From contig CP000071.1 of NCBI GenBank assembly GCA_000002445.1, positions 2,417,191-2,481,190 of the forward strand: a DNA stretch of 64,000 nt, read 5' to 3'. The stretch is from Trypanosoma brucei (lineage: Eukaryota). Below, piece after piece: positions 12,834 to 36,154 of the stretch. Below the pieces are notes generated by a model. That model made no database searches. It was not told the origin of the DNA and worked only from the letters and a program-made list of their open reading frames with translations. Numbering within the stretch: the stretch's first letter is position 1; each line of letters begins with the position of its first letter. A program made the position numbers and the translations under genes.

Positions 12834-13940
12834 GTGAATGTCCAAAGCTGTTGTTGCACACAAGTTAATAACATCCGCTTCGCCGTTAACACTCCGTACA
12901 CATTTCAGGCTCGTCGTGGGAATCGGACATGTAGGTTTATACGCGTGCCTGACTGTTACGCATTGCACCAACCCCCAAATTTACGTTTGGTTGACTAGGA
13001 AGTTAGGGTTGAAACTAGTAGGAAAGTAATGGCAAACACGGCTCTGCTGGAGCGAGAATATGCGCTACCACCGATGGGCGAGCTGTGCTTAGCGACCGCA
13101 AGCAGCGGCGGCGCTGCAACCGTTACGCTTCTTGCTCATAGTGTCGGTGAAAGTCTGTAACCGCGCGCTAGTGCTTTTTTGACAGAGTTGTTTCCAGGTG
13201 TGCGTTACCCTAATTATTTTTTTACGTGCTTCCTGTAGCTTAAACACCTAGCTCTTCTTCCTGATAGTCGCTACGGAGATCATGCTCTTCATCGGATGAA
13301 ATCGTCGCTGTAGTCCACTGAAAGAGGCGGCACATCAAAAGGCAGTTGCAATGAACGGCTTATATGAAACACTCTCGTTAACGCAGGGAAAAAGTTGTTG
13401 CTATAAGAATGTTTGCTACTCTACTTACTCAAATACACGGTAAGATTAGCCCAAGTTGTCAATGCCAATATCTCAGTGTCACCACCTCTTTCACGGATAC
13501 AAAACTTTCACTTCTCATATTAAGGTTTCGCAGTCGATCTCACCGCCACCAGATGTCACCAATAAGAAAATACTCCCCTAGTTCTATACATGCGCCCTAA
13601 TTTCTGCCACACATTCTACTAATTTTGTTGTTTCGTTCCTTCTCTTATCCTTATTGCTTCAGGGTTTGTGTAGGTAAAGAAGTGTCATGACGTGATGTGT
13701 ATTGGCTGCGTGTATTTGAAGCCAGACGCTGGTGAAGACTGACAGCTTATAGTCGGTAAGAACTGTTAGTTTACTATACGTGTGGGTTAACAGTAACTAT
13801 CCCCTCCTTCTGTTGCCGTTTCATGGTTCGATGGCGTAGAGAAATTAACTGTGCGTTGTTATACTGACAGTGCTTCTATTGTTGCAGTGGGATTTTGTTT
13901 TCTTGCGATGTGAGCAGCATTACACTTTGCTGCTTTCCCT

Positions 13941-13999
13941 TTTTCCAATGCACATGTTCACCTTTCGTGTTTAATTGCTTGTTATCACAATTCCAATAG
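13941..13999 (+). promoter_or_regulatory. Putative spliced-leader acceptor region (polypyrimidine tract plus AG) for the A-type AAT copy. It is repeated upstream of the second A-type copy at about 22180-22238.
   Basis: A pyrimidine-rich run (ccctttttccaatgcacatgttcacctttcgtgtttaattgcttgttatcacaattccaatAG) ends in AG at 13998-13999, 37 nt upstream of the ATG at 14036. Confidence 0.3.
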
Positions 14000-14035
14000 G
14001 TTAGGTCACATTATTCCTTGCGTAGTGGAAGTGAA

Positions 14036-15418
14036 ATGCGAGCCACCAAAAAGCATCCGAATGATGGAAAGGGAGCCACTACCGATCCATTTGTTGACGG
14101 CAGCGATCCAATTCCTTCTGAGGTCGCTGCTTTCGATCCTTTGCAGCAGGAACATGTTGATGTGGTAAAGGAAGTGAAACCCTCGCTTTTCGCCGTACTT
14201 CTTGAGAAGTTTATTCCCCATGGTGGATTGTGGTCCTGTGCCCTGAACCTGGCCTCTGCTACATTGGGTGCTGGCATTTGCTCACTGCCTGCAGGTTTCA
14301 ATTTGAGTGGGATTGTTATGTCCTGCATTTACCTTGTTTGCGTTGCGGTTGGCACGGTGTACTCTCTTAATCTTCTTGCAAAGGTTGCAGTGAAGACGGG
14401 ATCGCGTAATTACGGAGAAGCTGCCAAAGCAGTGATGGGTCCACTTGCTGGTTACTACACGGCAGCGCTTATGATAGTGATGTGTTTTGGCGGCTCCGTT
14501 GCTTACATCATCATTATTGGTATCATTTTGAAGGCTGTGCTCAATCGTGATGGTGTTCCGGAATATTTGAAATCAGAAAGTGGTAATCGGCTAATGACAT
14601 CCATGGTGTGGTTGGTGATTATCTTGCCTATGTGCATTCCCAAGCAGGTTAATTCATTGCGCCACTTATCCTTTGTGGGTGTGATGTTTATTGTGTATTT
14701 TTCATGTGTTGTTATTGGCCATTCCATTAATAAGATCATTAATGAGGGTGTCGCTGATGGCATCGTGTACATGCGCACTGGAAATAGCGCTTTAGATGGC
14801 TTATCACTATTTCTCTTCTCATTTATCTGCCAGCCGAACGCATTTGAAATATTCCGTGAGATGAAACACCGGTCGCCGCAACGCTTCACAATATATGGTA
14901 CTGTCGGCATGTCAATGTGTGCTGTGCTTTACTTCCTGGTTGGTTTATTTGGTTATTTGGAGTTTGGAGGGGATGCCATTGACACAGTGCTGTCTCTATA
15001 TGATCCAGGTGAGAATGTTGCCGTTGCAATTGCGTACATTGGGGTTGCTGCCAAGGTTTGTGTTGCCTTTGCTTTGCACATCATACCAATGCGTGATGCA
15101 CTGTACCATTGTACGGGTTGGCATGTTGATACTGTACCGTACTGGAAGCATTCCCTCATTGTGACGTCTATTACTTTAGCGGCTCTACTAATGGGACTCT
15201 TCATTCCGAAAGCATCCACTGTTTTTGGTCTCGTTGGTGCTTTCTGTGGCGGTCATATCGGACTTGTGTTGCCTCCGTTGTTCTACATGTACTCAGGTGG
15301 CTTCACGAGGGAAAAAGTTGGTAATATTGATTTCTTTGGCACTTATCTCCTTCTTTTTGTTGGTGTTGTGGCTGTTGTATTTGGCACGGTTTCAACAATA
15401 TACAACACGGTGCCGTAG
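14036..15418 (+). CDS. Amino acid transporter (Aa_trans / kinetoplastid AAT family), A-type copy 1, 460 aa.
   Basis: The track start at 14018 is TTG and the first ATG is at 14036 (MRATKKHPNDGKG...). It has a hydrophilic N-terminus followed by about 11 hydrophobic segments. Conserved motifs: FIPHGGLWSCALNLASATLGAGICSLP and MYSGGFTREKVGN. It is near-identical to the copy at 22275. Confidence 0.85.
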   Translation: MRATKKHPNDGKGATTDPFVDGSDPIPSEVAAFDPLQQEHVDVVKEVKPSLFAVLLEKFIPHGGLWSCALNLASATLGAGICSLPAGFNLSGIVMSCIYLVCVAVGTVYSLNLLAKVAVKTGSRNYGEAAKAVMGPLAGYYTAALMIVMCFGGSVAYIIIIGIILKAVLNRDGVPEYLKSESGNRLMTSMVWLVIILPMCIPKQVNSLRHLSFVGVMFIVYFSCVVIGHSINKIINEGVADGIVYMRTGNSALDGLSLFLFSFICQPNAFEIFREMKHRSPQRFTIYGTVGMSMCAVLYFLVGLFGYLEFGGDAIDTVLSLYDPGENVAVAIAYIGVAAKVCVAFALHIIPMRDALYHCTGWHVDTVPYWKHSLIVTSITLAALLMGLFIPKASTVFGLVGAFCGGHIGLVLPPLFYMYSGGFTREKVGNIDFFGTYLLLFVGVVAVVFGTVSTIYNTVP

Positions 15419-16175
15419 TATGATGATGATTTCTACGCGGGTATGTTCTTGGTGCACACATACTTTATTTTTTATCCATAGGTATTGCTTGTGTATATCC
15501 ACATGCGCAAATATATATTTATATATTTGTACCGTGTAATATTTAATGGGTTGTGATTTCTTTCATTTTCTTTGCAGTAGCAATATTTCTATGGATCTTC
15601 ATCTTTCGGTTGCTCCCACATCTTGTCAGTGATTTATCACTATTATTACATTCTTTTGTGAAAATTATATATGTCGTTTCTTTATGATAACTGAATCCAG
15701 TTATTCATTTGTCGTACTCCCTTTTGTTTCCATTTTCCCCAAAAGGAGAGAGCACACACAACGGTTGGTGTCCCTTTCCACACTTGTTGTTATTGTTATC
15801 ATTATTATCGGGCTAAACTTAGCATTATTCCTCCCCTAGTGTCACTGCTGCTGTCAACTGGGTTATTGTTGTATCTCTTCTCTTTTGTCAGTCTTAGTGA
15901 TTCAACTGTTGGAGGAAAAGATCAGGGGCAAGACGTTGTGGTAACGTGTAACGAGATCGGATATCTGTGTTTGAGTTACTGGTTCCGTTTTTTGTTTGCA
16001 GTACACATCTCTTTGTTTGTCGACTTCCTATTGACTTCCAGCACTTTGTATAGAGTTTGCTACAGATGTATTTATTATCTTCTTTCTGGTATGTCTTTCA
16101 AAATCTCTTCGTTTTCACTTGGATGTTATATTACTATCTTGAAGCGTAAGGTTCGTATCATAATACGCTACCAAT

Positions 16176-17561
16176 ATGACGAATCAATCCAGCGGGGGCA
16201 ATGACAGGGGCCGTCGTGACACGGATCCTTTTGCTCACGCTGGTGATGTAAAATTATCTTCTGACGCTATTGCACTTGATGTAACTCAGAAAGGCCAGGA
16301 TGATGTGGTAAAGGAAGTGAAACCCTCGCTTTTCGCCGTACTTCTTGAGAAGTTTATTCCCCATGGTGGATTGTGGTCCTGTGCCCTGAACCTGGCCTCT
16401 GCTACATTGGGTGCTGGCATTTGCTCACTTCCGACTGGTTTCAATTTGAGTGGGATTGTTATGTCCTGCATTTACCTTGTTTGCGTTGCGGTTGGCACGG
16501 TGTACTCTCTTAATCTTCTTGCAAAGGTTGCAGTGAAGACGGGATCGCGTAATTACGGAGAAGCTGCGCGGATGGTGATGGGTCCACTTACTGGTTACTA
16601 CGCGGCAGCGCTTATGATAGCGATGTGCTTTGGAGGTAACGTTGCTTACATCATCATTATTGGTATCATTTTGAAGGCTGTGCTCAATCGTGATAGTGTT
16701 CCGGAATATTTGAAATCAGAAAGTGGTAATCGGCTAATGACATTCATGGTGTGGTTGGTGATTATCTTGCCTATGTGCATTCCCAAGCGGGTTAATTCAT
16801 TGCGCCACTTATCCTTTGTGGGTGTGATCGCTATTGCTTATTTCGCATTTTTCATTGTTGGCCATTCCATTAATAAGATCATTAATGAGGGTGTCGCTGA
16901 TGACATCGTGTACATGCGCACTGGAAATAGCGCTTTAGATGGCTTATCACTATTTCTCTTCTCATTTATCTGCCAGTCGAACGCATTTGAAATATTCCGT
17001 GAGATGAAACACCGGTCGCCGCAACGCTTCACAATATATGGTATTGTGGGTGTTGTGATGTGTGCTGTGCTTTACTTCCTGGTTGGTTTATTTGGTTATT
17101 TGGAGTTTGGAGGGAAATCTGTTGACACAGTGCTGTCTCTATATGATCCAGGTGAGAATGTTGCCCTTGCAATTGCGTATATTGGAATTGCAATTAAAAT
17201 AACAGTTGCTCATGCTCTACACTCTATTCCCATACGTGACGGTCTGTACCATTGTGTGGGTTGGCATGTTGATACTGTACCGTATTGGAAGCATGTTGTT
17301 GTGGTTGTAACTATTAACTTTACCTCACTGATTATTGGACTCTTCATTCCGAAAGCATCCACTGTTTTTGGTCTCGTTGGTGCTTTCTGTGGTGGTCATA
17401 TCGGACTTGTGTTGCCTCCGTTGTTCTACATGTACTCAGGTGGCTTCACGAGGGAAAAAGTTGGTAATATTGATTTCTTTGGCACTTATCTCCTTCTTTT
17501 TGTTGGTGTTGTGGCTGTTGTATTTGGCACGGTAACGACCATAGCCGGTGCACTGTCTTGA
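16176..17561 (+). CDS. Amino acid transporter (AAT family), B-type copy 1, 461 aa. This is the most diverged member of the array.
   Basis: ATG at 16176 (MTNQSSGGNDRGRRDTDP...). It has the same core as the A-type copies. It carries unique substitutions (VIAIAYFAFFIVGH; GKSVDT) and a unique C-terminus (TVTTIAGALS). Confidence 0.85.
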   Translation: MTNQSSGGNDRGRRDTDPFAHAGDVKLSSDAIALDVTQKGQDDVVKEVKPSLFAVLLEKFIPHGGLWSCALNLASATLGAGICSLPTGFNLSGIVMSCIYLVCVAVGTVYSLNLLAKVAVKTGSRNYGEAARMVMGPLTGYYAAALMIAMCFGGNVAYIIIIGIILKAVLNRDSVPEYLKSESGNRLMTFMVWLVIILPMCIPKRVNSLRHLSFVGVIAIAYFAFFIVGHSINKIINEGVADDIVYMRTGNSALDGLSLFLFSFICQSNAFEIFREMKHRSPQRFTIYGIVGVVMCAVLYFLVGLFGYLEFGGKSVDTVLSLYDPGENVALAIAYIGIAIKITVAHALHSIPIRDGLYHCVGWHVDTVPYWKHVVVVVTINFTSLIIGLFIPKASTVFGLVGAFCGGHIGLVLPPLFYMYSGGFTREKVGNIDFFGTYLLLFVGVVAVVFGTVTTIAGALS

Positions 17562-19789
17562 CACATTAGATTGCAAATGGAGCGTCTATGGATGTTTAAC
17601 CTTTATGAATCCTCCTGTAGGAATTTGTGTGTGTAAATGAGAATTTCTTGATTCAATAAATAATTCTTTTGATAGAACCAAAAAAAGTAGTAATTAATTA
17701 AATGTGGTAAATATCTTTTCTTATATTTTTGTTTTCATTCCTTTGGCTGCCTGCACGGCGTCGGTAATAATTGTAATTTGTACCGGTGCTGTTGGGACAG
17801 GTTGGTAGTTTGGCCTCCAGCTCAACCTGTAAGGGTGAGGGGGAATAGCCATGGTGATGGCATTAATTTTAACTTAAGGAGAAAGGGACCAACTGAGCAT
17901 AAAGGGCAACTTTAAGGAAATATATAAGGTTTAGGCAATATATACACGCAGGTATGTCTTGGGTGTAGAAACCCATGTGACTTATTTGCGTGACGTTTTT
18001 GCTTTCATTTTTCATTTTTTTTTTTTGGAAACCCTGCGTTACCAATGGTTTTGGATATGGGATTACATGGTATTATTTTGTACGAATTTCCTTATATAAA
18101 TACACTGTCTTCTCCAATATTTTACAGCTGCCTGCCAGAGGGTGTAAGTTCTAGAAAGAAAAAAATATGTTTTATGATATCAAAGATGCTGCCTCATACA
18201 CGATCGATTTTCAGAGAGAGAGGGTAATAAATGTCACGGCTTTTATGGAATCTGTTCGCCAAAAGGGACCAGCATCTTTTTCTTTCGACTTTGAACCAGT
18301 ACAGAACCCGAGGGATGCATACCACGTGGATGGAATTCTGACAATCGAGGATGAAAACCCTAATGGTGTTTACTTTGACCGCGAACAGAAAATGGATCTG
18401 GGATCGCTGAGGCAATTGATGGTAAGTTTTGTGTTGCCTAGAAACTCAGATTTCCTAAAGGCTTTTTGAAGAGGCGAGAGAAGCAATGAATTTGGGGGCT
18501 TTAATATTTCCCTACCTATACTCCACCACAAGGGAAAAAACCAACACAACGGAGAAAGTTACACTGGAGGACGGTAACAACTACTACTACTCCTACCCTT
18601 TGTCCGCCAATGAGTTACCCGACACGGACGGGAATAGTACGACCCTTACGCGCAGAAAAGTCGACAGCAGCTCAACGTATGAGAGGAGCCTTTCAAGAGA
18701 TCTGGGAAATGTCAAATGGAAATTAAAAACATGCAACAAGGTGGTCGTCGGTGAACGACGTCAAGGTTATTCTAGCTTCTACGCACGATTCGTATATTGT
18801 GACACTGGTTTCAGAAGAAAACAAAGTAGCAAAAAGGATGTGGACACACACAACTTGGGACAAACAGAAAGGGTCCATAATCCGAAGGTTCTATGCGTTT
18901 GCAGACAAACACGGACTACCGGCTGTCGAAACGACAATCCCCTTGTTTATTGTAAGTTTGCAACTGGCAAAGAGCACCACCATACAGTACACAAGGACAC
19001 TACTATCATTACTAGCCGCAGAGCATACACCAGCGCGAATGTATTTGTAGCCGGACTATGCAGAATGACAGGGGGAAATACCATAAAACAGGCTTGACCC
19101 ATGTTGCGTTGGGAGCTCGATCTCGTATGCGACACTTTAACACTGGAGCGGGATCGAGTAGCTTTAAGACTATCCTGAATCACAGCTAGCAGATGGGGAG
19201 AAATAGCAGAGCTACAACAAGAGAATTTTGTGCTCCATCCACAAGACAAAAAAGATGATGCCATAGTGGTAAACTGAGGAGCACTCCCAAAGACATTCAA
19301 AAGCGACACACACAGAACCGCGAAGTATGTGGTGATAAGCGGAGAAGATGCAGGAAGGATCCGAAGGGTAATCAGGGAAATGGAGGGTAGTGAAAAGCTC
19401 ATAGCCATTACAACGAAGGGAATGGAAACAATATTCTGCCCATTTGGGGTGACTGCACATTCAATAAAGAGAGGGGCTTTGGCACACCCAGAGTTGGCAT
19501 TAGTGGCGTAAAAACACACGCCCTCGATTCAATATTATTAACACAATTGGGAAAGCACACAAACCCTCAGGAGCTTCCTCGAAGCACGGTAGGACGCTAT
19601 CTGTGTCTATGGACCGCCACCATCAACAAGTCGGAGTTGCGCATGACTGTGCTGATGTAAAACCCCTGAAAAGGGGAAAAACAGATTTACCATGGGATAT
19701 GCCAGATAATTCCCGCCAAGCAGGGATAGCTTTAGTAACCAGGAGTAAAACATTTTCAAGGGCATAGCATCACACGACGTTCGCAAGGA

Positions 19790-21300
19790 CCACGGGTGGC
19801 GTCTAAGGAAGAAGAGATGACATTGCCTCTTCAGGAAGTAAATGTGGGCACATTGTATTTAGAACGGGTACGAAGACGAATGAAGGAGGAGACGCGGCAA
19901 CGGTTTGAGAAGGTATGGAACTTGAAGATTGCCACAGAAGGAAAATCGAAAGAAAGAGACAGGGAGTCACATTTGCGGATTGCGGAAAAAGACGCTGTAA
20001 TCATAAAAGAAGCAGGTGTTATAAGCCAACCTTCGGATCTTCCTACAAAGGGATGGGTCATACCTTTTTCAGTTGTGGAGTAGAAGTCGGCAGGAAAAAG
20101 ACGCCGATTTATTGCTTGGTCCAAGGTAAAAAATGCCAAAAATGATTACGAGGCCGAAGTCCCGTTGGGATATATATCCCAATATCTAAGTGCAGTTTAT
20201 GATGAATCCGCAGGGTTGTTTGATTTAAAGGCTTCTTTTTTTCCGGATGAACATGCCACAAAAGACATTTGAGTGTGTCTCCGCTGTTGCACAGAAAAGT
20301 GGGGAACTCGTAGAATTGAATCAACTCCAATTGGTTAATAAATGAAGTCATGAAATTGTAAAGACATCACGAGAGTTTTGGCAGGAGATCCTGGGGCAGC
20401 GAAACCACAATATGCGGCCACCAACGAATTGAGGGCGCACACATGGATCGACAACATCCGTATCAGTAGACCACACAAAACGGTCAAGGAATGGGGGGAC
20501 CACATTGCTAAAAATATGAAAGAGTGCGGAGTAAATGTTGATGAGCAAAGAAATGGCAACACGTTACGAATTTATCGGGTTTTTATTTGAGCATGACAAA
20601 CAGACGGTTTTGTTGAATGCAAAGACAATGCGGCGGATTCGAGAATCGGCTCCACTCGAGGTAGCGACCATACAACAGATGGAGAGAGTTGTATTCTGCA
20701 TGATATATGCGGCTGGGGTTAGGGGAGAACCACTTTTTTCTTACTATACTTTCTTTTAAATGATGCGTTGGCGTTTATCTCGCCTAAATATGGGTTTGGT
20801 AAACCCCTCCGATTTGGTTTTTCTGCCAAAAAGTGTATTGAAGCTGGAGAAGCAGTGGATGAGCGAGTTGTTGAAAAATGTGCCAGTGGTTCCACCACAG
20901 GCTCAGCCCACTACGGCCACGCTGGTGACAGATGCCTCCGTGCAGGGATGGGGAGGGATGTCATTTAAAGGTACAGGAGAGATTATAATAGCAGGAGGCT
21001 CCTGGGAAACGGCACCTCATATGATATCATAAGGAGAAGTGCGAGCGATTCAATTCGCATTGTTAGCGATTCGGGGGCGTTTCGATGGGCCATTGCACAT
21101 ATGTGTGGATAACACTGCTGTAATGCATATTATGAGAAAAGGCAACACGCATTCAAGCGCCCTAGTGCGATAGGCATCTGCAAAAAACAGGATATTACGA
21201 CAAGAACGGATAAGTGCCATATGGAGCTACGTACATTCCGGGATAAATCCGGCCGATGGGGCGTCTCGAGGGTTACTTGCCATGGGGTAGGACTTAGCGA
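19790..21300 (+). mobile_element. Degenerate retrotransposon remnant (RT/RNase H-like; ingi/DIRE-like or VIPER-like). Boundaries are uncertain.
   Basis: A chain of short ORFs interrupted by frame shifts and stops (19796-20083, 20378-20590, 20535-20759, 20760-21032) ends in a clear RNase H signature. It sits in a block (17562-21822) that is absent from the other array units. Confidence 0.5.
20760..21290 (+). pseudogene. RNase H domain remnant of a retroelement pol, disrupted by two in-frame stops.
   Basis: One frame reads ...LVTDASVQGWGGM..GGSWETAPHMIS*GEVRAIQFALLAIRGRFDGPLHICVDNTAVMHIMRKGNTHSSALVR*ASAKNRILRQERISAIWSYVHSGINPADGASRGLLAMG*. This matches the RNase H motifs (TDAS/GxG; E..A.L.A; DN..V; H.G...AD.LA). 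The stops are TAA at 21030-21032 and TAG at 21171-21173. Confidence 0.6.
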
Positions 21301-22274
21301 AGGAAAGCGCGGGAGGCGGGATGAGAACGCTTTCAGCTCTTCCACATAGTTAGTAAATTATCGTTTAAGATCATAGTTTGTGTAGGATGATGAGGAACGC
21401 TTACTGTTTCTTCAGCATGATAGTTATTTCCTATATATATATTTCTATGAAGTAAAGGGAAGGTGAACACAAAGCTATTCGGTTTTCAGTTGAAAAAATA
21501 AATGTATTGTATTAAGGTTCTTTTCGGATACTGTGATGACGTATGTTTTTCCCTCCTTGTGCTAAATTTCTTTTTCGCTGGTATTCCTCTTTCCATAGAT
21601 TCGTGGCTTCCTACCGTTTGGAACGATTACGGACCCCTACACACAATAAGTAAATTTCTTATATATTTCCTTTATATATTTCCTTTATATATATTCTTTA
21701 TATATTTGTTTTTGATTTCTTTGGAGTTTTTAAGTCTATTTCTCGTTTGTTTTTTTGTATTCCTGTCTCGCATTTGCCATGTTGTCATTATGTCTGTAAC
21801 CGAGATTGTCGTCGAGTGATGCCTATACATGCGCCCTAATTTCTGCCACACATTCTACTAATTTTGTTGTTTCGTTCCTTCTCTTATCCTTATTGCTTCA
21901 GGGTTTGTGTAGGTAAAGAAGTGCCATGACGTGATGTGTATTGGCTGCGTGTATTTGAAGCCAGACGCTGGTGAAGACTGACAGCTTATAGTCGGTAAGA
22001 ACTGTTAGTTTACTATACGTGTGGGTTAACAGTAACCATCCCCTCCTTCTGTTGCCGTTTCATGGTTCGATGGCGTAGAGAAATTAACTGTGCGTTGTTA
22101 TACTGACAGTGCTTCTATTGTTGCAGTGGGATTTTGTTTTCTTGCGATGTGAGCAGCATTACACTTTGCTGCTTTCCCTTTTTCCAATGCACATGTTCAC
22201 CTTTCGTGTTTAATTGCTTGTTATCACAATTCCAATAGGTTAGGTCACATTATTCCTTGCGTAGTGGAAGTGAG

Positions 22275-23657
22275 ATGCGAGCCACCAAAAAGCATCCGAA
22301 TGATGGAAAGGGAGCCACTACCGATCCATTTGTTGACGGCAGCGATCCAATTCCTTCTGAGGTCGCTGCTTTCGATCCTTCGCAGCAGGAGCATGTTGAT
22401 GTGGTAAAGGAAGTGAAACCCTCGCTTTTCACCGTACTTCTTGAGAAGTTTATTCCCCATGGTGGATTGTGGTCCTGTGCCCTGAACCTGGCCTCTGCTA
22501 CATTGGGTGCTGGCATTTGCTCACTGCCTGCAGGTTTCAATTTGAGTGGGATTGTTATGTCCTGCATTTACCTTGTTTGCGTTGCGGTTGGCACGGTGTA
22601 CTCTCTTAATCTTCTTGCAAAGGTTGCAGTGAAGACGGGATCGCGTAATTACGGAGAAGCTGCCAAAGCAGTGATGGGTCCACTTGCTGGTTACTACACG
22701 GCAGCGCTTATGATAGTGATGTGCTTTGGCGGCTCCGTTGCTTACATCATCATTATTGGTATCATTTTGAAGGCTGTGCTCAATCGTGATGGTGTTCCGG
22801 AATATTTGAAATCAGAGAGTGGTAATCGGCTAATGACATCCATGGTGTGGTTGGTGATTATCTTGCCTATGTGCATTCCCAAGCAGGTTAATTCATTGCG
22901 CCACTTATCCTTTGTGGGTGTGATGTTTATTGTGTATTTTTCATGTGTTGTTATTGGCCATTCCATTAATAAGATCATTAATGAGGGTGTCGCTGATGGC
23001 ATCGTGTACATGCGCACTGGAAATAGCGCTTTAGATGGCTTATCACTATTTCTCTTCTCATTTATCTGCCAGCCGAACGCATTTGAAATATTCCGTGAGA
23101 TGAAACACCGGTCGCCGCAACGCTTCACAATATATGGTACTGTCGGCATGTCAATGTGTGCTGTGCTTTACTTCCTGGTTGGTTTATTTGGTTATTTGGA
23201 GTTTGGAGGGGATGCCATTGACACAGTGCTGTCTCTATATGATCCAGGTGAGAATGTTGCCGTTGCAATTGCGTACATTGGGGTTGCTGCCAAGGTTTGT
23301 GTTGCCTTTGCTTTGCACATCATACCAATGCGTGATGCGCTGTACCATTGTACGGGTTGGCATGTTGATACTGTACCGTACTGGAAGCATTCCCTTATTG
23401 TGACGTCTATTACTTTAGCGGCTCTACTAATGGGACTCTTCATTCCGAAAGCATCCACTGTTTTTGGTCTCGTTGGTGCTTTCTGTGGTGGTCATATCGG
23501 ACTTGTGTTGCCTCCGTTGTTCTACATGTACTCAGGTGGCTTCACGAGGGAAAAAGTTGGTAATATTGATTTCTTTGGCACTTATCTCCTTCTTTTTGTT
23601 GGTGTTGTGGCTGTTGTATTTGGCACGGTTTCAACAATATACAACACGGTGCCGTAG
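22275..23657 (+). CDS. Amino acid transporter (AAT family), A-type copy 2, 460 aa.
   Basis: First ATG at 22275 (the track TTG is at 22257). It is near-identical to 14036-15418 apart from a few substitutions (L->S in DPSQQ; A->T in LFTV). Confidence 0.85.
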   Translation: MRATKKHPNDGKGATTDPFVDGSDPIPSEVAAFDPSQQEHVDVVKEVKPSLFTVLLEKFIPHGGLWSCALNLASATLGAGICSLPAGFNLSGIVMSCIYLVCVAVGTVYSLNLLAKVAVKTGSRNYGEAAKAVMGPLAGYYTAALMIVMCFGGSVAYIIIIGIILKAVLNRDGVPEYLKSESGNRLMTSMVWLVIILPMCIPKQVNSLRHLSFVGVMFIVYFSCVVIGHSINKIINEGVADGIVYMRTGNSALDGLSLFLFSFICQPNAFEIFREMKHRSPQRFTIYGTVGMSMCAVLYFLVGLFGYLEFGGDAIDTVLSLYDPGENVAVAIAYIGVAAKVCVAFALHIIPMRDALYHCTGWHVDTVPYWKHSLIVTSITLAALLMGLFIPKASTVFGLVGAFCGGHIGLVLPPLFYMYSGGFTREKVGNIDFFGTYLLLFVGVVAVVFGTVSTIYNTVP

Positions 23658-24414
23658 TATGATGATGATTTCTACGCGAGTATGTTCTTGGTGCACACAT
23701 ACTTTATTTTTTATCCATAGGTATTGCTTGTGTATATCCACATGCGCAAATATATATTTATATATTTGTACCGTGTAATATTTAATGGGTTGTGATTTCT
23801 TTCATTTTCTTTGCAGTAGCAATATTTCTATGGATCTTCATCTTTCGGTTGCTCCCACATCTTGTCAGTGATTTATCACTATTATTACATTCTTTTGTGA
23901 AAATTATATATGTCGTTTCTTTATGATAACTGAATCCAGTTATTCATTTGTCGTACTCCCTTTTGTTTCCATTTTCCCCAAAAGGAGAGAGCACACACAA
24001 CGGTTGGCGTCCCTTTCCACACTTGTTGTTATTGTTATCATTATTATCGGGGTAAACTTAGCATTATTCCTCCCCTAGTGTCACTGCTGCTGTCAACTGG
24101 GTTATTGTTGTATCTCTTCTCTTTTGTCAGTCTTAGTGATTCAACTGTTGGAGGAAAAGATCAGGGGCAAGACGTTGTGGTAACGTGTAACGAGATCGGA
24201 TATCTGTGTTTGAGTTACTGGTTCCGTTTTTTGTTTGCAGTACACATCTCTTTGTCTGTCGACTTCCTATTGACTTCCAGCACTTTGTATAGAGTTTGCT
24301 ACAGATGTATTTATTATCTTCTTTCTGGTATGTCTTTCAAAATCTCTTCGTTTTCACTTGGATGTTATATTACTATCTTGAAGCGTAAGGTTCGTATCAT
24401 AATACGCTACCAAT

Positions 24415-25800
24415 ATGACGAATCAATCCAGCGGGGGCAATGACAGGGGCCGTCGTGACACGGATCCTTTTGCTCACGCTGGTGATGTAAAATTATCTTC
24501 TGACGCTATTGCACTTGATGTAACTCAGAAAGGCCAGGATGATGTGGTAAAGGAAGTGAAACCCTCGCTTTTCACCGTACTTCTTGAGAAGTTTATTCCC
24601 CATGGTGGATTGTGGTCCTGTGCCCTGAACCTGGCCTCTGCTACATTGGGTGCTGGCATTTGCTCACTTCCGACTGGTTTCAATTTGAGTGGGATTGTTA
24701 TGTCCTGCATTTACCTTGTTTGCGTTGCGGTTGGCACGGTGTACTCTCTTAATCTTCTTGCAAAGGTTGCAGTGAAGACGGGATCGCGTAATTACGGAGA
24801 AGCTGCGCGGATGGTGATGGGTCCACTTACTGGTTACTACGCGGCAGCGCTTATGATAGCGATGTGCTTTGGAGGTAACGTTGCTTACATCATCATTATT
24901 GGTATCATTTTGAAGGCTGTGCTCAATCGTGATGGTGTTCCGGAATATTTGAAATCAGAAAGTGGTAATCGGCTAATGACATCCATGGTGTGGTTGGTGA
25001 TTATCTTGCCTATGTGCATTCCCAAGCAGGTTAATTCATTGCGCCACTTATCCTTTGTGGGTGTGATGTTTATTGTGTATTTTTCATGTGTTGTTATTGG
25101 CCATTCCATTAATAAGATCATTAATGAGGGTGTCGCTGATGGCATCGTGTACATGCGCACTGGAAATAGCGCTTTAGATGGCTTATCACTATTTCTCTTC
25201 TCATTTATCTGCCAGTCGAACGCATTTGAAATATTCCGTGAGATGAAACACCGGTCGCCGCAACGCTTCACAATATATGGTACTGTCGGCATGTCAATAT
25301 GTGCTGTGCTTTACTTCCTGGTTGGTTTATTTGGTTATTTGGAGTTTGGAGGGGATGCCATTGACACAGTGCTGTCTCTATATGATCCAGGTGAGAATGT
25401 TGCCCTTGCAATTGCGTACATTGGGGTTGCAATTAAAATAACAGTTGCTCATGCTCTACACGCTATTCCCATACGTGACGGTCTGTACCATTGTGTGGGT
25501 TGGCATGTTGATACTGTACCGTATTGGAAGCATGTTGTTGTGGTTGTAACTATTAACTTTACCTCACTGATTATTGGACTCTTCATTCCGAAAGCATCCA
25601 CTGTTTTTGGTCTCGTTGGTGCTTTCTGTGGTGGTCATATCGGACTTGTGTTGCCTCCGTTGTTCTACATGTACTCAGGTGGCTTCACGAGGGAAAAAGT
25701 TGGTAATATTGATTTCTTTGGCGCTTATCTCCTTCTTTTTGTTGGTGTTGTGGCTGTTGTATTTGGCACGGTTTCAACAATATACAACACGGTGCCGTAG
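24415..25800 (+). CDS. Amino acid transporter (AAT family), mosaic B/A/B/A copy, 461 aa.
   Basis: ATG at 24415. The N-terminus is B-type (to about 24885). The middle is A-type (MFIVYFSCVVIGH, TVGMSICAVLY, GGDAIDT; about 24930-25360). Then it is B-type again (VAIKITVAHALHAIPIRDGLYHCVGW...VVVVVTINFTSLIIG; about 25390-25580). The C-terminus and downstream sequence are A-type (TVSTIYNTVP). Confidence 0.85.
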   Translation: MTNQSSGGNDRGRRDTDPFAHAGDVKLSSDAIALDVTQKGQDDVVKEVKPSLFTVLLEKFIPHGGLWSCALNLASATLGAGICSLPTGFNLSGIVMSCIYLVCVAVGTVYSLNLLAKVAVKTGSRNYGEAARMVMGPLTGYYAAALMIAMCFGGNVAYIIIIGIILKAVLNRDGVPEYLKSESGNRLMTSMVWLVIILPMCIPKQVNSLRHLSFVGVMFIVYFSCVVIGHSINKIINEGVADGIVYMRTGNSALDGLSLFLFSFICQSNAFEIFREMKHRSPQRFTIYGTVGMSICAVLYFLVGLFGYLEFGGDAIDTVLSLYDPGENVALAIAYIGVAIKITVAHALHAIPIRDGLYHCVGWHVDTVPYWKHVVVVVTINFTSLIIGLFIPKASTVFGLVGAFCGGHIGLVLPPLFYMYSGGFTREKVGNIDFFGAYLLLFVGVVAVVFGTVSTIYNTVP

Positions 25801-26550
25801 TATGATGATGATTTCTACGCGGGTATGTTCTTGGTGTACACATACTTTATTTCTAGGTATTGCTTGTGTATATCCACATGCGCAAATATTTATTTATATA
25901 TTTGTACCGTGTAATATTTAATGGGCTGTGATTTCTTTCATTTTCTTTGCAGTAGCAATATTTCTATGGATCTTCATCTTTCAGTTGCTCCCACATCTTG
26001 TCAGTGATTTATCACTATTATTACATTCTTTTGTGAAAATTATATATGTCGTTTCTTTATGATAACTGAATCCAGTTATTCCTTTGTCGTACTCCCTTTT
26101 GTTTCCATTTTCCCCAAAAGGAGAGAGCACACACAACGGTTGGCGTCCCTTTCCACACTTGTTGTTATTGTTATCATTATTATCGGGGTAAACTTAGCAT
26201 TATTCCTCCCCTAGTGTCACTGCTGCTGTCAACTGGGTTATTGTTGTATCTCTTCTCTTTTGTCAGTCTTAGTGATTCAACTGTTGGAGGAAAAGATCAG
26301 GGGCAAGACGTTGTGGTAACGTGTAACGAGATCGGATATCTGTGTTTGAGTTACTGGTTCCGTTTTTTGTTTGCAGTACACATCTCTTTGTTTGTCGACT
26401 TCCTATTGACTTCCAGCACTTTGTATAGAGTTTGCTGCAGATGTATTTATTATCTTCTTTCTGGTATGTCTTTCAAAATCTCTTCGTTTTCACTTGGATG
26501 TTATATTACTATCTTGAAGCGTAAGGTTCGTATCATAATACGCTACCAAT

Positions 26551-27933
26551 ATGACGAATCAATCCAGCGGGGGCAATGACAGGGGCCGTCGTGACACGGA
26601 TCCTTTTGCTCACGCTGGTGATGTAAAATTATCTTCTGACGCTATTGCACTTGATGTAACTCAGAAAGGCCAGGATGATGTGGTAAAGGAAGTGAAACCC
26701 TCGCTTTTCACCGTACTTCTTGAGAAGTTTATTCCCCATGGTGGATTGTGGTCCTGTGCCCTGAACCTGGCCTCTGCTACATTGGGTGCTGGCATTTGCT
26801 CACTTCCGACTGGTTTCAATTTGAGTGGGATTGTTATGTCCTGCATTTACCTTGTTTGCGTTGCGGTTGGCACGGTGTACTCTCTTAATCTTCTTGCAAA
26901 GGTTGCAGTGAAGACGGGATCGCGTAATTACGGAGAAGCTGCGCGGATGGTGATGGGTCCACTTGCTGGCTACTACGCGGCAGCGCTTATGATAGCGATG
27001 TGCTTTGGAGGTAACGTTGCTTACATCATCATTATTGGTATCATTTTGAGAGCTCTATTTAGTCGTGATGGTGTTCCGGAATATTTGAAATCAGAGAGTG
27101 GTAATCGGCTAATGACATCCATGGTGTGGTTGGTGATTATCTTGCCTATGTGCATTCCCAAGCAGGTTAATTCATTGCGCCACTTATCCTTTGTGGGTGT
27201 GATGTTTATTGTGTATTTTTCATGTGTTGTTATTGGCCATTCCATTAATAAGATCATTAATGAGGGTGTCGCTGATGGCATCGTGTACATGCGCACTGGA
27301 AATAGCGCTTTAGATGGCTTATCACTATTTCTCTTCTCATTTATCTGCCAGTCGAACGCATTTGAAATATTCCGTGAGATGAAACACCGGTCGCCGCAAC
27401 GCTTCACAATATATGGTACTGTCGGCATGTCAATGTGTGCTGTGCTTTACTTCCTGGTTGGTTTATTTGGTTATTTGGAGTTTGGAGGGGATGCCATTGA
27501 CACAGTGCTGTCTCTATATGATCCAGGTGAGAATGTTGCCGTTGCAATTGCGTACATTGGGGTTGCTGCCAAGGTTTGTGTTGCCTTTGCTTTGCACATC
27601 ATACCAATGCGTGATGCGCTGTACCATTGTACGGGTTGGCATGTTGATACTGTACCTTACTGGAAGCATTCCCTTATTGTGACGTCTATTACTTTAGCGG
27701 CTCTACTAGTGGGACTCTTCATTCCGAAAGCATCCACTGTTTTTGGTCTCGTTGGTGCTTTCTGTGGTGGTCATATCGGACTTGTGTTGCCTCCGTTGTT
27801 CTACATGTACTCAGGTGGCTTCACGAGGGAAAAAGTTGGTAATATTGATTTCTTTGGTACTTATCTCCTTCTTTTTGTTGGTGTTGTGGCTGTTGTACTT
27901 GGTACTGGATCGGCAGTATATTATGCTGTGTAG
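26551..27933 (+). CDS. Amino acid transporter (AAT family), mosaic B/A copy with a unique C-terminus, 460 aa.
   Basis: ATG at 26551. The N-terminal third is B-type. The rest is A-type from about 27070. It has a unique cluster at 27047-27062 (RALFS instead of KAVLN) and a unique terminus (VVLGTGSAVYYAV). Confidence 0.8.
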   Translation: MTNQSSGGNDRGRRDTDPFAHAGDVKLSSDAIALDVTQKGQDDVVKEVKPSLFTVLLEKFIPHGGLWSCALNLASATLGAGICSLPTGFNLSGIVMSCIYLVCVAVGTVYSLNLLAKVAVKTGSRNYGEAARMVMGPLAGYYAAALMIAMCFGGNVAYIIIIGIILRALFSRDGVPEYLKSESGNRLMTSMVWLVIILPMCIPKQVNSLRHLSFVGVMFIVYFSCVVIGHSINKIINEGVADGIVYMRTGNSALDGLSLFLFSFICQSNAFEIFREMKHRSPQRFTIYGTVGMSMCAVLYFLVGLFGYLEFGGDAIDTVLSLYDPGENVAVAIAYIGVAAKVCVAFALHIIPMRDALYHCTGWHVDTVPYWKHSLIVTSITLAALLVGLFIPKASTVFGLVGAFCGGHIGLVLPPLFYMYSGGFTREKVGNIDFFGTYLLLFVGVVAVVLGTGSAVYYAV

Positions 27934-28398
27934 TTGTTTTTTATGTTAATCGTTGAATATTGTGGGAAGGCACTAGTTTTTTTTTCCTGGATGTTGTGGG
28001 GACACTGTTTTTTATGAGGCCAAGTAATGTTTTTCTGTTTTTTAATATTTGTTTAAAAATTTTTTCTTTGTGGTTTTTATTTTTAATTTATTTTGTTGTT
28101 GCTGATTAATTGTTTAGTGTACGCCGCTTCGTGTTGTATCCTTATTTTGCTGTACTGTTAAGTGTAGTAGCTTGCTTTTGTTGTTACGGATGAATCGGGG
28201 TTGTATCGTCGCTTTGCGGGTAACCTCCGATGATTTTTTCTTCTTCCTTCTTTGCCCCAGCTGGATGCCGTACGCGACAATCTCGAAGGGAGTTTTCCTT
28301 TATTTAGAATATAAGATATTTCCCCCCTATTATTGCTGTCGTGTCGTTGCGGGTTTTAGCTTTATCGAAGCTTAATAATGTTTGTTGCTAACGGTGGG

Positions 28399-28612
28399 GT
28401 TCTATACATGCGCCCTAATTTCTGCCACACATTCTACTAATTTTGTTGTTTCGTTCCTTCTCTTATCCTTATTGCTTCAGGGTTTGTGTAGGTAAAGAAG
28501 TGTCATGACGTGATGTGTATTGGCTGCGTGTATTTGAAGCCAGACGCTGGTGAAGACTGACAACTTATAGTCGGTGAGAACTGTTAGTTTACTATACGTG
28601 TGGGTTAACGGT
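28399..28612 (+). repeat. Partial third copy of the array upstream element U, with no gene downstream.
   Basis: About 210 nt (gttctatacatgcgccctaatttctgccacacattctac...tgggttaac) are near-identical to 13581-13800 and 21823-22040. Similarity ends abruptly at about 28612. Confidence 0.85.
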
Positions 28613-29558
28613 AATTAAAGGAATTTCTTAAAAGTTTGTGTGTTTTTTTTTGTAATGGCACGTGGCCGGAGGTTTGATGCGAAGTGGTGTCTGGGGTTGG
28701 GCGCAGCTGTTGCAAAATGAGTTACAAGTTATTTCCTTGTCTGTAATTGCGTTGATTTATACTGGAATGGTGACCTGATGCTTTTGTGAGTTTATGATGT
28801 GTTTGGATGTGCTGCGTCTGTTGTTGGATCGCTGAAGTGTAGTTCCTTTAGTGGCGACGTTGAGGTTTGATTTGTGGTTATGTGGTCTCTTTTGTAGCTT
28901 TGTGGTGTTTATGTAGTTTTTTTTCATCTTTTAGCTCTTATTTGCTTCGAGATTCAGTGGTCAGTGAAGCAGTAGTTTTCGAATTTATATCTGTAGCCTT
29001 TCTGTGTCGCTGGGGTTATTGTTTTTATAGTTGAGTTGGATGGTTGTTGTTGTTGCAAGTTTGTGATTAATTGAGTTACATGTTCTCTAGGATCTTATTG
29101 AGAGATATTTAAAGGTTAGTTCGTGCTCTTAATTTAGAGTAAATGAAGATTATGGGGATTGTCTAGTGGCTTTTCAGTGCGTCATACAGCATTTACATAA
29201 TCGGCCGTCTGCTTATCTTTTTTTTTTTTGTGTGTGTGTGGTAGAACCTAATGGAGATATTATTTTTTGCACATTGGTTTTGTGACTTTAGTTTTGGATC
29301 ATCATGCGAGGTATCCCTCCATATTTAGTTGTTTCTTATTATTGCCATTTGCTGTGTGCTTGTCCTCACATCGTTAAGCCATGGATTTGTTATCTGCCGT
29401 TGTCGATTGTGATTTTGTTGAAAGCAGGTGCGTTATTGCTTCCAATCCATTTCTCTTTTTTTCCCTCATCCGTTTCAATGACACACACGTAAGGGATACA
29501 TATTAGTCCCGTTTGTCTTACTTTTGTTCCTCCCTTCTCACCTTTGCAGCTCACTTTT

Positions 29559-35284: not shown

Positions 35285-36154
35285 AGTGATATTTGAATGC
35301 TTTTGCATTTCACTATTTTTATTTTTGTTTTGTTTTGTGTTTTTTTTTTTCATTTGGTAGTCATTTCGGGCTTATGTTTATTTATTTGTAACGCCCTGCT
35401 CATTTCGTTGAGTTTACCCCCCGTTACACTGGATTGTCGTTTCCCTTCAATTTCGTTTTTCACTCTTATTCGTCGTGTAACTTTTGCTACTTTACTAATG
35501 ATTATTCTCGCTTCAGTTTGATGCTGTCCGTAAACAATGTTTGTCATTTTTGTTATTATTGTTGTTGTTATGTTTATACGTTTAGGTTGCAATGGAAAAT
35601 GCAGCAATGATACAACCGATAGCATGTGCCTTGCAGAGTTGAGTGCCAACCATTTTTCGAGGTTCAACGCCTTCCCCCCTCTTTTTGTTACTTTCTCTCC
35701 GTTAGTATTTTGTTTCTCTCTCCCTTTTTTTAAACTGCTACGAGGTTACCATCTGCAATCGTTGTATTACTACTATATATATATATACATTTAAAATGTA
35801 CAACAGCGTAGGGAAGAAAAGAGAGAGAGGAACTAAAACAACAAAAAAAATATGTAGAGTGTATCGGAATAGAAACGAAAGAAAGAAGCACAAAAAAAGA
35901 AAAAAGAAACCCGTCGCCATATAAATGATAAAAAGGCGTAAATAAACGAACAAATAATCAAAGGGATTTGTTTATGTATTTTAATTGTCCAATTGTTTTA
36001 TTTTCCATCTCACCACCTTTAGATCCTTTTTTCTTTTTCTTTTTTTCTTCTTCTATGATATTTGTTTCATTTACTGCAGGTGAGGTTTCTGTTAGTAATT
36101 GGTGATTTCAGCCAGCGACCAACTAAATCAGACCCTAAGCTGTTATTGGACCTA

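What the first reader, a model, noticed from the sequence alone, without database searches (positions are those of the whole stretch)
20760..21290. RNase H domain fossil with two in-frame stop codons
A single reading frame carries all the canonical RNase H catalytic motifs: TDAS..GWGG, GEVRAIQFALLA, ICVDNTAV and HSGINPADGASRGLLA. It is broken by TAA at 21030 and TAG at 21171. Upstream short ORFs in shifting frames (19796-20759) probably represent the decayed RT. This is a dead retroelement copy. Its presence inside a housekeeping transporter locus is a possible recombination hotspot.
Basis: seen in the sequence. Interest (0 to 1): 0.5.

Follow-up and report, generated by a model that had tools for sequence, protein, structure and literature searches.

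The report
Dead VIPER retrotransposon between transporter genes
The broken RNase H reading frame is real, but it is one part of an already catalogued, long-dead VIPER retrotransposon lying between two amino-acid transporter genes on Trypanosoma brucei chromosome 8, so it is ordinary.

Summary
One + strand frame over 20760-21290 carries the quoted motifs and is broken by TAA 21030 and TAG 21171.

It is the RNase H end of a roughly 3.1 kb degenerate VIPER element, a tyrosine-recombinase retrotransposon of the DIRS order. The parts, all on the + strand, are:
- a Gag-like remnant at 18218-18466
- a tyrosine recombinase at 18748-19660
- a reverse transcriptase (RT) at 19748-20900
- an RNase H at 20900-21290, with the natural stop at 21322-21324

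The stitched RT/RNase H translation matches VIPER polyproteins of T. grayi and T. theileri at E about 1e-154. The recombinase is 63% identical to an intact T. theileri protein. In total there are 9 in-frame stops and about 8 frameshifts, and no terminal repeats.

Pfam RNase_H and RVT_1 do not hit the window copy directly. RNase H identity rests on a family profile (CaMV and Ty3 RNase H in the PDB), per-member Pfam hits, and a confident model of a homologue.

The window is T. brucei TREU927 chromosome 8. The T. b. gambiense orthologue lies inside a region listed as degenerate VIPER by Ribeiro et al. 2019. Substitutions between the two copies are neutral. The "recombination hotspot" idea is not shown. 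Verdict: already known, low interest.

The parts
18218..18466 (+). Gag-like ORF remnant, inside the open frame 18167-18469
   Evidence: tblastn with the N-terminal part of the T. melophagium protein P0005 gives 38% identity over 86 aa, E = 8e-11. No CCHC box is retained, and Pfam finds nothing.
18748..19660 (+). Tyrosine recombinase (YR) pseudogene. It has 2 frameshifts (about 19042 and 19506) and 3 in-frame TGA stops (19095, 19176, 19275). The natural stop TAA is at 19658.
   Evidence: A frameshift-aware alignment to the intact T. theileri protein P0094 (319 aa) gives 63% identity over 295 aa. The homologue search gave E = 6e-96. The motifs RLS*ITASRWGEIAEL, LPKTFKSD, HSIKRGAL and STVGRYL are visible.
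19748..20900 (+). Reverse transcriptase pseudogene (fingers, palm, thumb and connection). Stops are TAG 20081, TGA 20343 and TAA 20757. Frameshifts lie near 20237, 20274, 20300, 20367 and 20549.
   Evidence: A frameshift-aware alignment to T. grayi P0001 gives 52% identity over 515 aa, including the RNase H part. Homologues match Pfam RVT_1, below its cut-off. The homologue model matches CaMV, MMLV, HIV-1 and Ty3 RTs at E down to 1e-18.
20901..21290 (+). RNase H domain fossil, the core of the finding. In-frame stops are TAA 21030, TAG 21171 and TAG 21288. The catalytic codons D 20931, E 21036, D 21108 and D 21255 are intact.
   Evidence: The family profile A4 matches the RNase H domains of CaMV RT (8r0s_A, E = 7e-6) and Ty3 (7q5b and 4ol8, E = 3e-4 and 8e-4) over the full domain. 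Of 37 family members, 21 hit Pfam RT_RNaseH.
21291..21324 (+). C-terminal tail of the RT/RNase H ORF, now in another frame (...RRKAREAG), ending at the natural stop TGA 21322-21324
   Evidence: Homologues end in ...GEREAG or GAREAG. The window reads KAREAG-TGA in the +1 frame.
17562..22256 (+). The 4.7 kb spacer between transporter genes 16176-17561 and 22257-23657 that holds the fossil. Other spacers in the array are about 755 bp. The element's true ends within it are undetermined.
   Evidence: The stretch 21823-22256 is the repeated 434-bp leader of the next transporter gene and matches 13584-14017. No split direct repeats were found.

Best explanation
The feature is the RNase H end of one degenerate, non-autonomous copy of VIPER. 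VIPER is the tyrosine-recombinase retrotransposon of trypanosomes (DIRS order, VIPER-like subgroup).

The copy lies in sense orientation in the spacer between the second and third genes of the five-copy AAT9 amino-acid transporter array on T. brucei brucei TREU927 chromosome 8.

When alive, by the published model for DIRS-like elements rather than anything shown here, such an element would work as follows:
- It is transcribed.
- Its RT/RNase H copies the RNA into DNA.
- Split direct repeats allow a circular double-stranded intermediate to form.
- The tyrosine recombinase integrates that circle without target-site duplication.

This copy can do none of that. All three coding regions are broken, by 9 in-frame stops and about 8 frameshifts. 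The Gag-like part is reduced to a short remnant, and no terminal repeats remain.

The copy was already dead in the common ancestor of T. b. brucei and T. b. gambiense, because most lesions are shared. It has drifted neutrally since.

By inference, it is now simply carried along as intergenic or UTR sequence in the polycistronic transcription unit.
For: Shown by tool results:
- The stitched RT/RNase H translation matches trypanosome proteins at E = 2.6e-154 to 1e-81. Some of these carry the Pfam domains RVT_1 and RVT_3.
- The upstream frames match an intact T. theileri tyrosine recombinase at E = 6e-96, with 63% identity.
- The order Gag-like, YR, RT/RNase H on one strand matches the published VIPER structure (PMC6681497; PMC12278014).
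- The RNase H identity of the family is supported three ways. The profile hits the CaMV and Ty3 RNase H domains, with the invariant D, E, D, D columns aligned to theirs; in the Ty3 chains one of these columns reads D in 7q5b and N in 4ol8. Per-member Pfam hits include RT_RNaseH, RT_RNaseH_2, RVT_3, DNA_pol_viral_C and RNase_H. An AlphaFold model of homologue P0003 has pLDDT 95 and matches RT-RNase H structures at E = 1e-18.
- Eight window proteins are exact matches to TREU927 chromosome 8 entries AAZ13575-AAZ13591.
- The T. b. gambiense orthologue (L001, record 2166715-2171408) lies inside Tbg972_08_2159853_2176197, which is listed as a degenerated VIPER copy. Tb927_08_v5.1_2428219_(2)444677 is listed likewise.
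- Substitutions between the two copies fall 48:52:54 on codon positions 1, 2 and 3 (p = 0.83). In the RNase H region, 45 differing codons are nonsynonymous and 17 synonymous.
- Ten lesions are shared by both subspecies.
- No protein accession lies between AAZ13580 and AAZ13581, the two flanking transporter genes.
Against: - Pfam RNase_H (PF00075) and RVT_1 do not hit the window's own translation. The only match is a sub-threshold one to DNA_pol_viral_C.
- No split direct repeats were found and the element's ends could not be located, so one defining structural feature of VIPER is absent from this copy.
- The Pfam Phage_integrase match of the intact YR homologue is not significant, at E = 0.069.
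- I could not map the window onto Tb927_08_v5.1 coordinates. That this exact copy is the listed Tb927 entry is therefore inferred from the orthologous T. b. gambiense entry and from its distance to the chromosome end.
Confidence: 0.95

Rival explanations
1. The fossil is a substrate for ectopic recombination or gene conversion and so destabilises the transporter array.
For: - Divergence between the TREU927 and T. b. gambiense copies is mosaic. Most of the spacer shows 0-3 differences per 100 bp. The tracts 18510-18860, 19700-19810, 20650-21300 and 21750-21850 show 12-25 per 100 bp, with sharp edges.
- Every lesion inside the 20650-21300 tract is lineage-specific, while lesions elsewhere are shared.
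- T. b. equiperdum IVM-t1 has about nine uninterrupted transporter copies and no VIPER homology at this locus.
- TREU927 has 36 and 58 tblastn hits to VIPER proteins that could act as donors.
Against: - No donor copy was identified.
- The mosaic could instead be old haplotypes or a chimeric T. b. gambiense assembly.
- Loss of the element and changes in copy number are fully explained by unequal crossover between the flanking 97%-identical transporter repeats. Gene conversion within this array is already documented without reference to the fossil (PMC1810246).
- There is only one VIPER copy in the 64 kb window.
Confidence: 0.2
2. The sequence is a domesticated or still-expressed VIPER-derived gene, for example read through its stops, like the VIPER-derived gene reported in Leishmania and Crithidia.
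For: - VIPER domestication has been proposed in other trypanosomatids (PMC5146736, abstract).
- All four RNase H catalytic codons are intact in TREU927.
- The element lies in sense orientation within a polycistronic unit.
Against: - There are 9 stops and about 8 frameshifts across the element.
- Substitutions are evenly spread over codon positions.
- The T. b. gambiense copy has lost a catalytic Asp (NPADG has become NPTYG) and carries different stops and frameshifts.
- The element is absent from the T. b. equiperdum array.
- No protein entry is annotated between the flanking genes.
Confidence: 0.02
3. The RNase H belongs to a non-LTR retroposon remnant (ingi/DIRE), or is a pseudogene of the host RNase H1.
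For: - ingi elements are abundant in T. brucei and encode RT and RNase H (PMC12278014).
Against: - All seven significant protein hits are the same trypanosome RT/RNase H family (T. grayi, T. theileri, T. melophagium, one unnamed), and this locus is catalogued as VIPER. None is ingi, L1Tc or a cellular RNase H.
- The RNase H is contiguous with an LTR-type RT, and a tyrosine recombinase lies upstream. ingi has no tyrosine recombinase.
- Ribeiro et al. place the VIPER RNase H with hepadnaviruses in their tree. This agrees with the DNA_pol_viral_C match found here.
Confidence: 0.01

Closest known systems
TbVIPER, the degenerate VIPER copies of Trypanosoma brucei (reported in T. brucei, ref 26 of Ribeiro et al.; catalogued by Ribeiro et al. 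2019, PMC6681497)
   Same: - Same species and same chromosome.
- Same Gag-like, YR, RT/RNase H order.
- All ORFs degenerate and no terminal repeats.
- The orthologous T. b. gambiense copy lies inside a region listed there as degenerated VIPER.
   Different: Nothing of substance differs. This report only adds a base-level lesion map and a comparison between subspecies.
Potentially coding VIPER copies of T. theileri, T. grayi and T. cruzi Dm28c
   Same: - 52% amino-acid identity over RT/RNase H and 63% over the YR.
- Same domain order.
- Same RNase H catalytic D, E, D, D columns.
   Different: - Those copies have open reading frames.
- In T. cruzi they also have split direct repeats, A1 at the 5' end and B1-A2-B2 at the 3' end.
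- The window copy has neither.
RNase H domains of Ty3/Gypsy and caulimovirus reverse transcriptases (PDB 4ol8, 7q5b, 8r0s)
   Same: - Profile-level sequence match across the whole domain, with aligned catalytic residues.
- Same RT-plus-RNase H fold for the homologue model.
   Different: - Only about 15-19% identity.
- VIPER uses a tyrosine recombinase rather than a DDE integrase.
Hepadnavirus polymerase C-terminal domain (Pfam DNA_pol_viral_C; its RNase H domain by my recollection)
   Same: - It is the only Pfam family the window copy touches directly (E = 0.006).
- 6 of 37 family members also match it.
- Ribeiro et al. report that VIPER RNase H groups with hepadnaviruses.
   Different: The match is below the Pfam gathering score, and the two belong to entirely different elements and hosts.

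Membership tests
VIPER (VIPER-like subgroup of DIRS-order tyrosine-recombinase retrotransposons) | An RT/RNase H ORF most similar to VIPER RT/RNase H | tested here: met
   E = 2.6e-154 and 51-53% identity to T. grayi and T. theileri proteins. The orthologous locus is catalogued as VIPER. T. brucei has VIPER hits but no TATE hits in Additional file 1; this is my reading of its column order.
VIPER (VIPER-like subgroup of DIRS-order tyrosine-recombinase retrotransposons) | A tyrosine recombinase ORF immediately upstream of, or overlapping, the RT/RNase H ORF on the same strand | tested here: met
   The stretch 18748-19660 is 63% identical to the intact T. theileri P0094. The R, K, HxxR and Y motifs are visible. 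Pfam Phage_integrase scores only E = 0.069 on P0094.
VIPER (VIPER-like subgroup of DIRS-order tyrosine-recombinase retrotransposons) | A Gag-like first ORF | tested here: inconclusive
   Only an 86-aa match to the N-terminus of T. melophagium P0005 (E = 8e-11). There is no CCHC box and no Pfam hit. The Gag-like ORF is poorly conserved in this family in any case.
VIPER (VIPER-like subgroup of DIRS-order tyrosine-recombinase retrotransposons) | Split direct repeats (A1 at the 5' end; B1-A2-B2 at the 3' end) | tested here: not met
   Only short repeats at chance level were found in 17400-22400. This is expected for a degenerate copy: VIPER was long considered to lack conserved terminal repeats.
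VIPER (VIPER-like subgroup of DIRS-order tyrosine-recombinase retrotransposons) | Insertion without target-site duplication | not testable with these tools
   The element's ends are not defined, and no empty site is available among the paralogous spacers.
RNase H type 1 fold, retroelement branch | The D-E-D-D catalytic residues in the conserved order | tested here: met
   The codons are GAT 20931, GAA 21036, GAT 21108 and GAT 21255. They fall in the invariant or nearly invariant columns D20, E55, D79 and D128 of alignment A4. Those columns align with the Ty3 and CaMV RNase H domains.
RNase H type 1 fold, retroelement branch | A significant profile match to RNase H families | tested here: inconclusive
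   The window copy alone gives no PF00075 hit, and DNA_pol_viral_C at E = 0.006 is below its cut-off. At family level the feature is met: the PDB profile search gives E = 7e-6 to 8e-4, and 21 of 37 members match RT_RNaseH with a best E of 1e-7.
RNase H type 1 fold, retroelement branch | An RT plus RNase H three-dimensional fold | tested here: met
   Tested on the intact homologue P0003, which is 57% identical in the RNase H region. The model has pLDDT 95.2, and Foldseek gives E = 1e-18 to CaMV RT and about 1e-16 to MMLV and HIV-1 RT. The window's own sequence could not be submitted.
RNase H type 1 fold, retroelement branch | An open reading frame able to produce an enzyme | tested here: not met
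   There are stops at 20757, 21030, 21171 and 21288 and a terminal frameshift.
ingi / DIRE non-LTR retroposons | An apurinic endonuclease with a LINE-type RT, a poly(A) tail and target-site duplications | tested here: not met
   The homologue searches returned no ingi- or L1Tc-like hits. A tyrosine recombinase is present instead. No poly(A) run was noted at the 3' end when reading the sequence.

The most novel reading that the evidence does not exclude
The sharply bounded, highly diverged tracts between the TREU927 and T. b. gambiense copies may mean that dead VIPER copies scattered through the T. brucei genome still exchange sequence by ectopic gene conversion. If so, this fossil would be an active recombination substrate inside a strain-variable transporter array. 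The array holds 5 copies with the fossil in TREU927, and about 9 copies without it in T. b. equiperdum.
Probability: 0.15. Interest if true: 0.35.

Novelty: already known. Interest (0 to 1): 0.1.

Why it matters
It matters little. VIPER fossils in T. brucei have been reported before (ref 26 of PMC6681497), and this locus appears in a published catalogue (PMC6681497).

The practical lesson is methodological. A direct Pfam RNase_H or RVT_1 scan misses this divergent family, so a "no hit" result would have wrongly refuted a correct observation.

The base-level lesion map and the presence/absence difference among T. brucei strains may be useful for annotating the AAT9 array. They may also serve as a neutral marker.

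Tried and rejected
- **Direct Pfam scan.** Scanning the window translation gave no RNase_H or RVT_1 hit. The stitched YR and the Gag-like ORF gave no Pfam hits either.
- **Shallow PDB profile search.** The 8-sequence alignment A1 returned only spurious kinesin hits. A 37-sequence RNase H alignment was needed.
- **First AlphaFold run.** With 7 sequences the model was unusable, at pLDDT 47.
- **Terminal or split direct repeats.** Nothing above chance was found.
- **Locating the insertion point.** Comparison with other spacers in the array found no informative similarity.
- **Exact-protein look-ups for TREU927 gene positions.** These failed. The organism was identified through cluster membership instead.
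- **Chromosome 4 paralogous block.** It lacks the array altogether.
- **T. equiperdum OVI contig.** It is too short to be informative.
- **Rfam scan of 17400-22400.** No hits.
- **CCHC zinc-knuckle search.** None found.
- **Literature search for the name TcC31.12.** Nothing useful. Any link between that name and the original T. cruzi VIPER clone rests on my memory only.
- **ingi/DIRE and host RNase H1 readings.** Rejected on homology and domain context.

Full report
**1. The observation**

Three details need amending:
- The ATG at 20760 is not a start codon. It follows another in-frame stop (TAA 20757) that replaces a conserved Lys, and the homology runs through it.
- The frame ends at a third stop (TAG 21288). 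After a frameshift, the natural ORF end (...KAREAG-TGA) is at 21322-21324.
- The RNase H domain proper is about 20900-21290.

**2. What it is**

The only match is sub-threshold, to DNA_pol_viral_C, the hepadnavirus polymerase C-terminal domain (by my recollection its RNase H domain), at E = 0.006.

A homologue search with the RT/RNase H translation stitched across frames settles the matter. It returns seven proteins, six of them named and from trypanosomes (T. grayi "TcC31.12", four from T. theileri, one from T. melophagium). E-values run from 2.6e-154 to 1e-81, with 43-53% identity and up to 99% coverage. Some carry precomputed RVT_1 or RVT_3 domains.

The + strand frames upstream hold two more remnants:
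- A decayed tyrosine recombinase at 18748-19660. It is 63% identical to an intact 319-aa T. theileri protein (E = 6e-96). The expected motifs RLS*ITASRWGEIAEL, LPKTFKSD, HSIKRGAL and STVGRYL are visible.
- A short Gag-like remnant at 18218-18466 (E = 8e-11 to the N-terminus of a T. melophagium protein).

The order Gag-like, tyrosine recombinase, RT/RNase H on one strand is the published architecture of VIPER (PMC6681497; PMC12278014).

**3. Is it really an RNase H?**

At family level, yes. A profile search of 1.84 billion representative proteins found 2817 relatives. From these I extracted 36 diverse RNase H segments and aligned them with the window copy as alignment A4.
- The invariant or nearly invariant columns are D20, E55, D79/N80 and D128.
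- The A4 profile matches the RNase H domains of CaMV RT (8r0s_A, E = 7e-6) and Ty3 RT (7q5b and 4ol8, E = 3e-4 and 8e-4) across the whole domain.
- Those four columns sit on the corresponding residues of the solved structures. In one of them Ty3 reads D in 7q5b and N in 4ol8, which looks like a catalytic-site mutant used for crystallisation (my reading).
- Scanned singly, 21 of 37 members match Pfam RT_RNaseH, 18 RT_RNaseH_2, 6 RVT_3, 6 DNA_pol_viral_C and 3 RNase_H.

An AlphaFold model of the intact T. theileri homologue P0003 was built with a 72-sequence alignment. It reached pLDDT 95.2. Foldseek matched it to CaMV, MMLV, HIV-1, foamy virus and Ty3 RT-RNase H structures at E = 1e-18 to 1e-15.

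In the window all four catalytic codons are intact: 20931, 21036, 21108 and 21255.

The DNA_pol_viral_C signal agrees with the report that VIPER RNase H groups with hepadnaviruses (PMC6681497).

**4. How dead is it?**

I ran a frameshift-aware protein-to-DNA alignment.

| Region | In-frame stops | Frameshifts |
|---|---|---|
| Tyrosine recombinase | TGA 19095, TGA 19176, TGA 19275 | near 19042 and 19506 |
| RT/RNase H | TAG 20081, TGA 20343, TAA 20757, TAA 21030, TAG 21171, TAG 21288 | near 20237, 20274, 20300, 20367, 20549, plus one near the C-terminus |

Other signs of decay or absence of function:
- No split direct repeats or other terminal repeats are detectable.
- No CCHC box survives.
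- No Rfam family matches the spacer.
- The element is a single copy within the window.
- It stands out by positive AT skew in a T-rich neighbourhood.

**5. Where it is**

Eight window proteins are exact matches to T. brucei brucei TREU927 chromosome 8 entries AAZ13575-AAZ13591. More were confirmed later.

The five transporter genes at 14036, 16176, 22275, 24415 and 26551 correspond to the AAT9 array (Tb927.8.8220, n = 5) of Jackson 2007. The two at 36062 and 39343 correspond to AAT10.

The fossil occupies the spacer between AAT9 copies 2 and 3. That spacer is 4696 bp, against about 755 bp elsewhere in the array.

The accessions of the two flanking genes are consecutive (AAZ13580 and AAZ13581). 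No protein is therefore annotated in between.

**6. Already catalogued**

The orthologous locus in T. b. gambiense DAL972 (L001, FN554971.1) has the same 4.7 kb spacer. Its record coordinates, 2166715-2171408, fall inside Tbg972_08_2159853_2176197. Additional file 2 of Ribeiro et al. 2019 lists that region as a VIPER copy with all three ORFs "degenerated".

The same table lists Tb927_08_v5.1_2428219_(2)444677. This is very probably the window's copy, although I could not map the coordinates.

VIPER had already been reported in T. brucei and was considered extinct there (PMC6681497).

**7. Evolution**

Ten lesions are shared by the TREU927 and T. b. gambiense copies, so the element was dead before those lineages split.

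Substitutions between the two copies fall 48:52:54 on codon positions 1, 2 and 3 (p = 0.83). In the RNase H region 45 differing codons are nonsynonymous and 17 synonymous. This means there is no coding constraint.

T. b. gambiense has CAA and GAG at those positions, but it carries its own stops and frameshifts and has lost a catalytic Asp, with NPADG changed to NPTYG.

**8. The "recombination hotspot" idea**

Two observations bear on it.

First, divergence between the two subspecies' copies is mosaic. The background is 0-3 differences per 100 bp. The tracts 18510-18860, 19700-19810, 20650-21300 and 21750-21850 have 12-25 per 100 bp, with sharp edges. All lesions in the RNase H tract are lineage-specific.

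Second, the T. b. equiperdum IVM-t1 assembly has about nine uninterrupted transporter copies and no VIPER homology here. The 2.5 kb I could not fetch fits exactly one repeat unit.

These observations are compatible with gene conversion and unequal crossover. However, the flanking 97%-identical transporter repeats are a sufficient cause, and conversion within AAT9 is already documented (PMC1810246). The mosaic could also reflect old haplotypes or an assembly chimera. No role for the fossil itself has been shown.

**9. Verdict**

The proposed test would have misled, and the hotspot speculation is unproven. This is a known kind of element at a catalogued locus, so interest is low.

Noticed in passing
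window 17562-22256 versus L001 13530-18223: Divergence between the TREU927 and T. b. gambiense copies of the spacer is mosaic. Tracts at 18510-18860, 19700-19810, 20650-21300 and 21750-21850 differ by 12-25 per 100 bp, against a background of 0-3 per 100 bp, with sharp boundaries. Possible causes are gene conversion from other VIPER copies, old haplotypes or an assembly chimera.
   Followed up: partly
L003 and L004 (T. b. equiperdum IVM-t1, CM010679.1 1455224-1503135) versus window 13584-28614: In this assembly the same array has about nine uninterrupted transporter copies with a period of about 2140 bp and no VIPER remnant. This is a presence/absence and copy-number difference within the T. 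brucei group.
   Followed up: partly
window about 13143; L002 about 14063: Homology to the chromosome 4 paralogous block (T. b. gambiense chromosome 4) ends at about 13143. That is about 440 bp before the repeated 434-bp leader of the first AAT9 gene. Chromosome 4 continues with unrelated genes (CLP1 and others). This fits Jackson's view that AAT9 was transposed into chromosome 8 after the block duplication.
   Followed up: partly
window 21659-21707: A 13-bp tandem repeat, TTATATATTTCCT, present in 3.8 copies within the pyrimidine-rich stretch upstream of the next transporter gene. T. b. gambiense has one unit fewer.
   Followed up: no
window 20447-20458 (WIDN) and alignment A5: At the position of RT motif C, the window copy and the family consensus read W-I-D-N rather than Y-x-D-D. 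The second Asp is an Asn in the consensus of 72 relatives. Whether this is known for VIPER was not checked.
   Followed up: no
proteins P0002, P0007, P0094, P0095 (T. theileri): Public names for these VIPER proteins look wrong. The RT/RNase H proteins carry a UniRef name beginning "Target of rapamycin (TOR)", and the tyrosine recombinases are called "trans-sialidase".
   Followed up: no
window 18947-19519, minus strand: A 190-aa open frame lies antisense to the recombinase remnant. It is one of only two ORFs of 150 aa or more in the spacer. It is presumed spurious and was not tested.
   Followed up: no
window 18001-21000: The fossil has positive AT skew (+0.08 to +0.27), while the surrounding transporter genes and spacers are strongly negative (about -0.2 to -0.3). 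It is therefore compositionally distinct from its host array.
   Followed up: no
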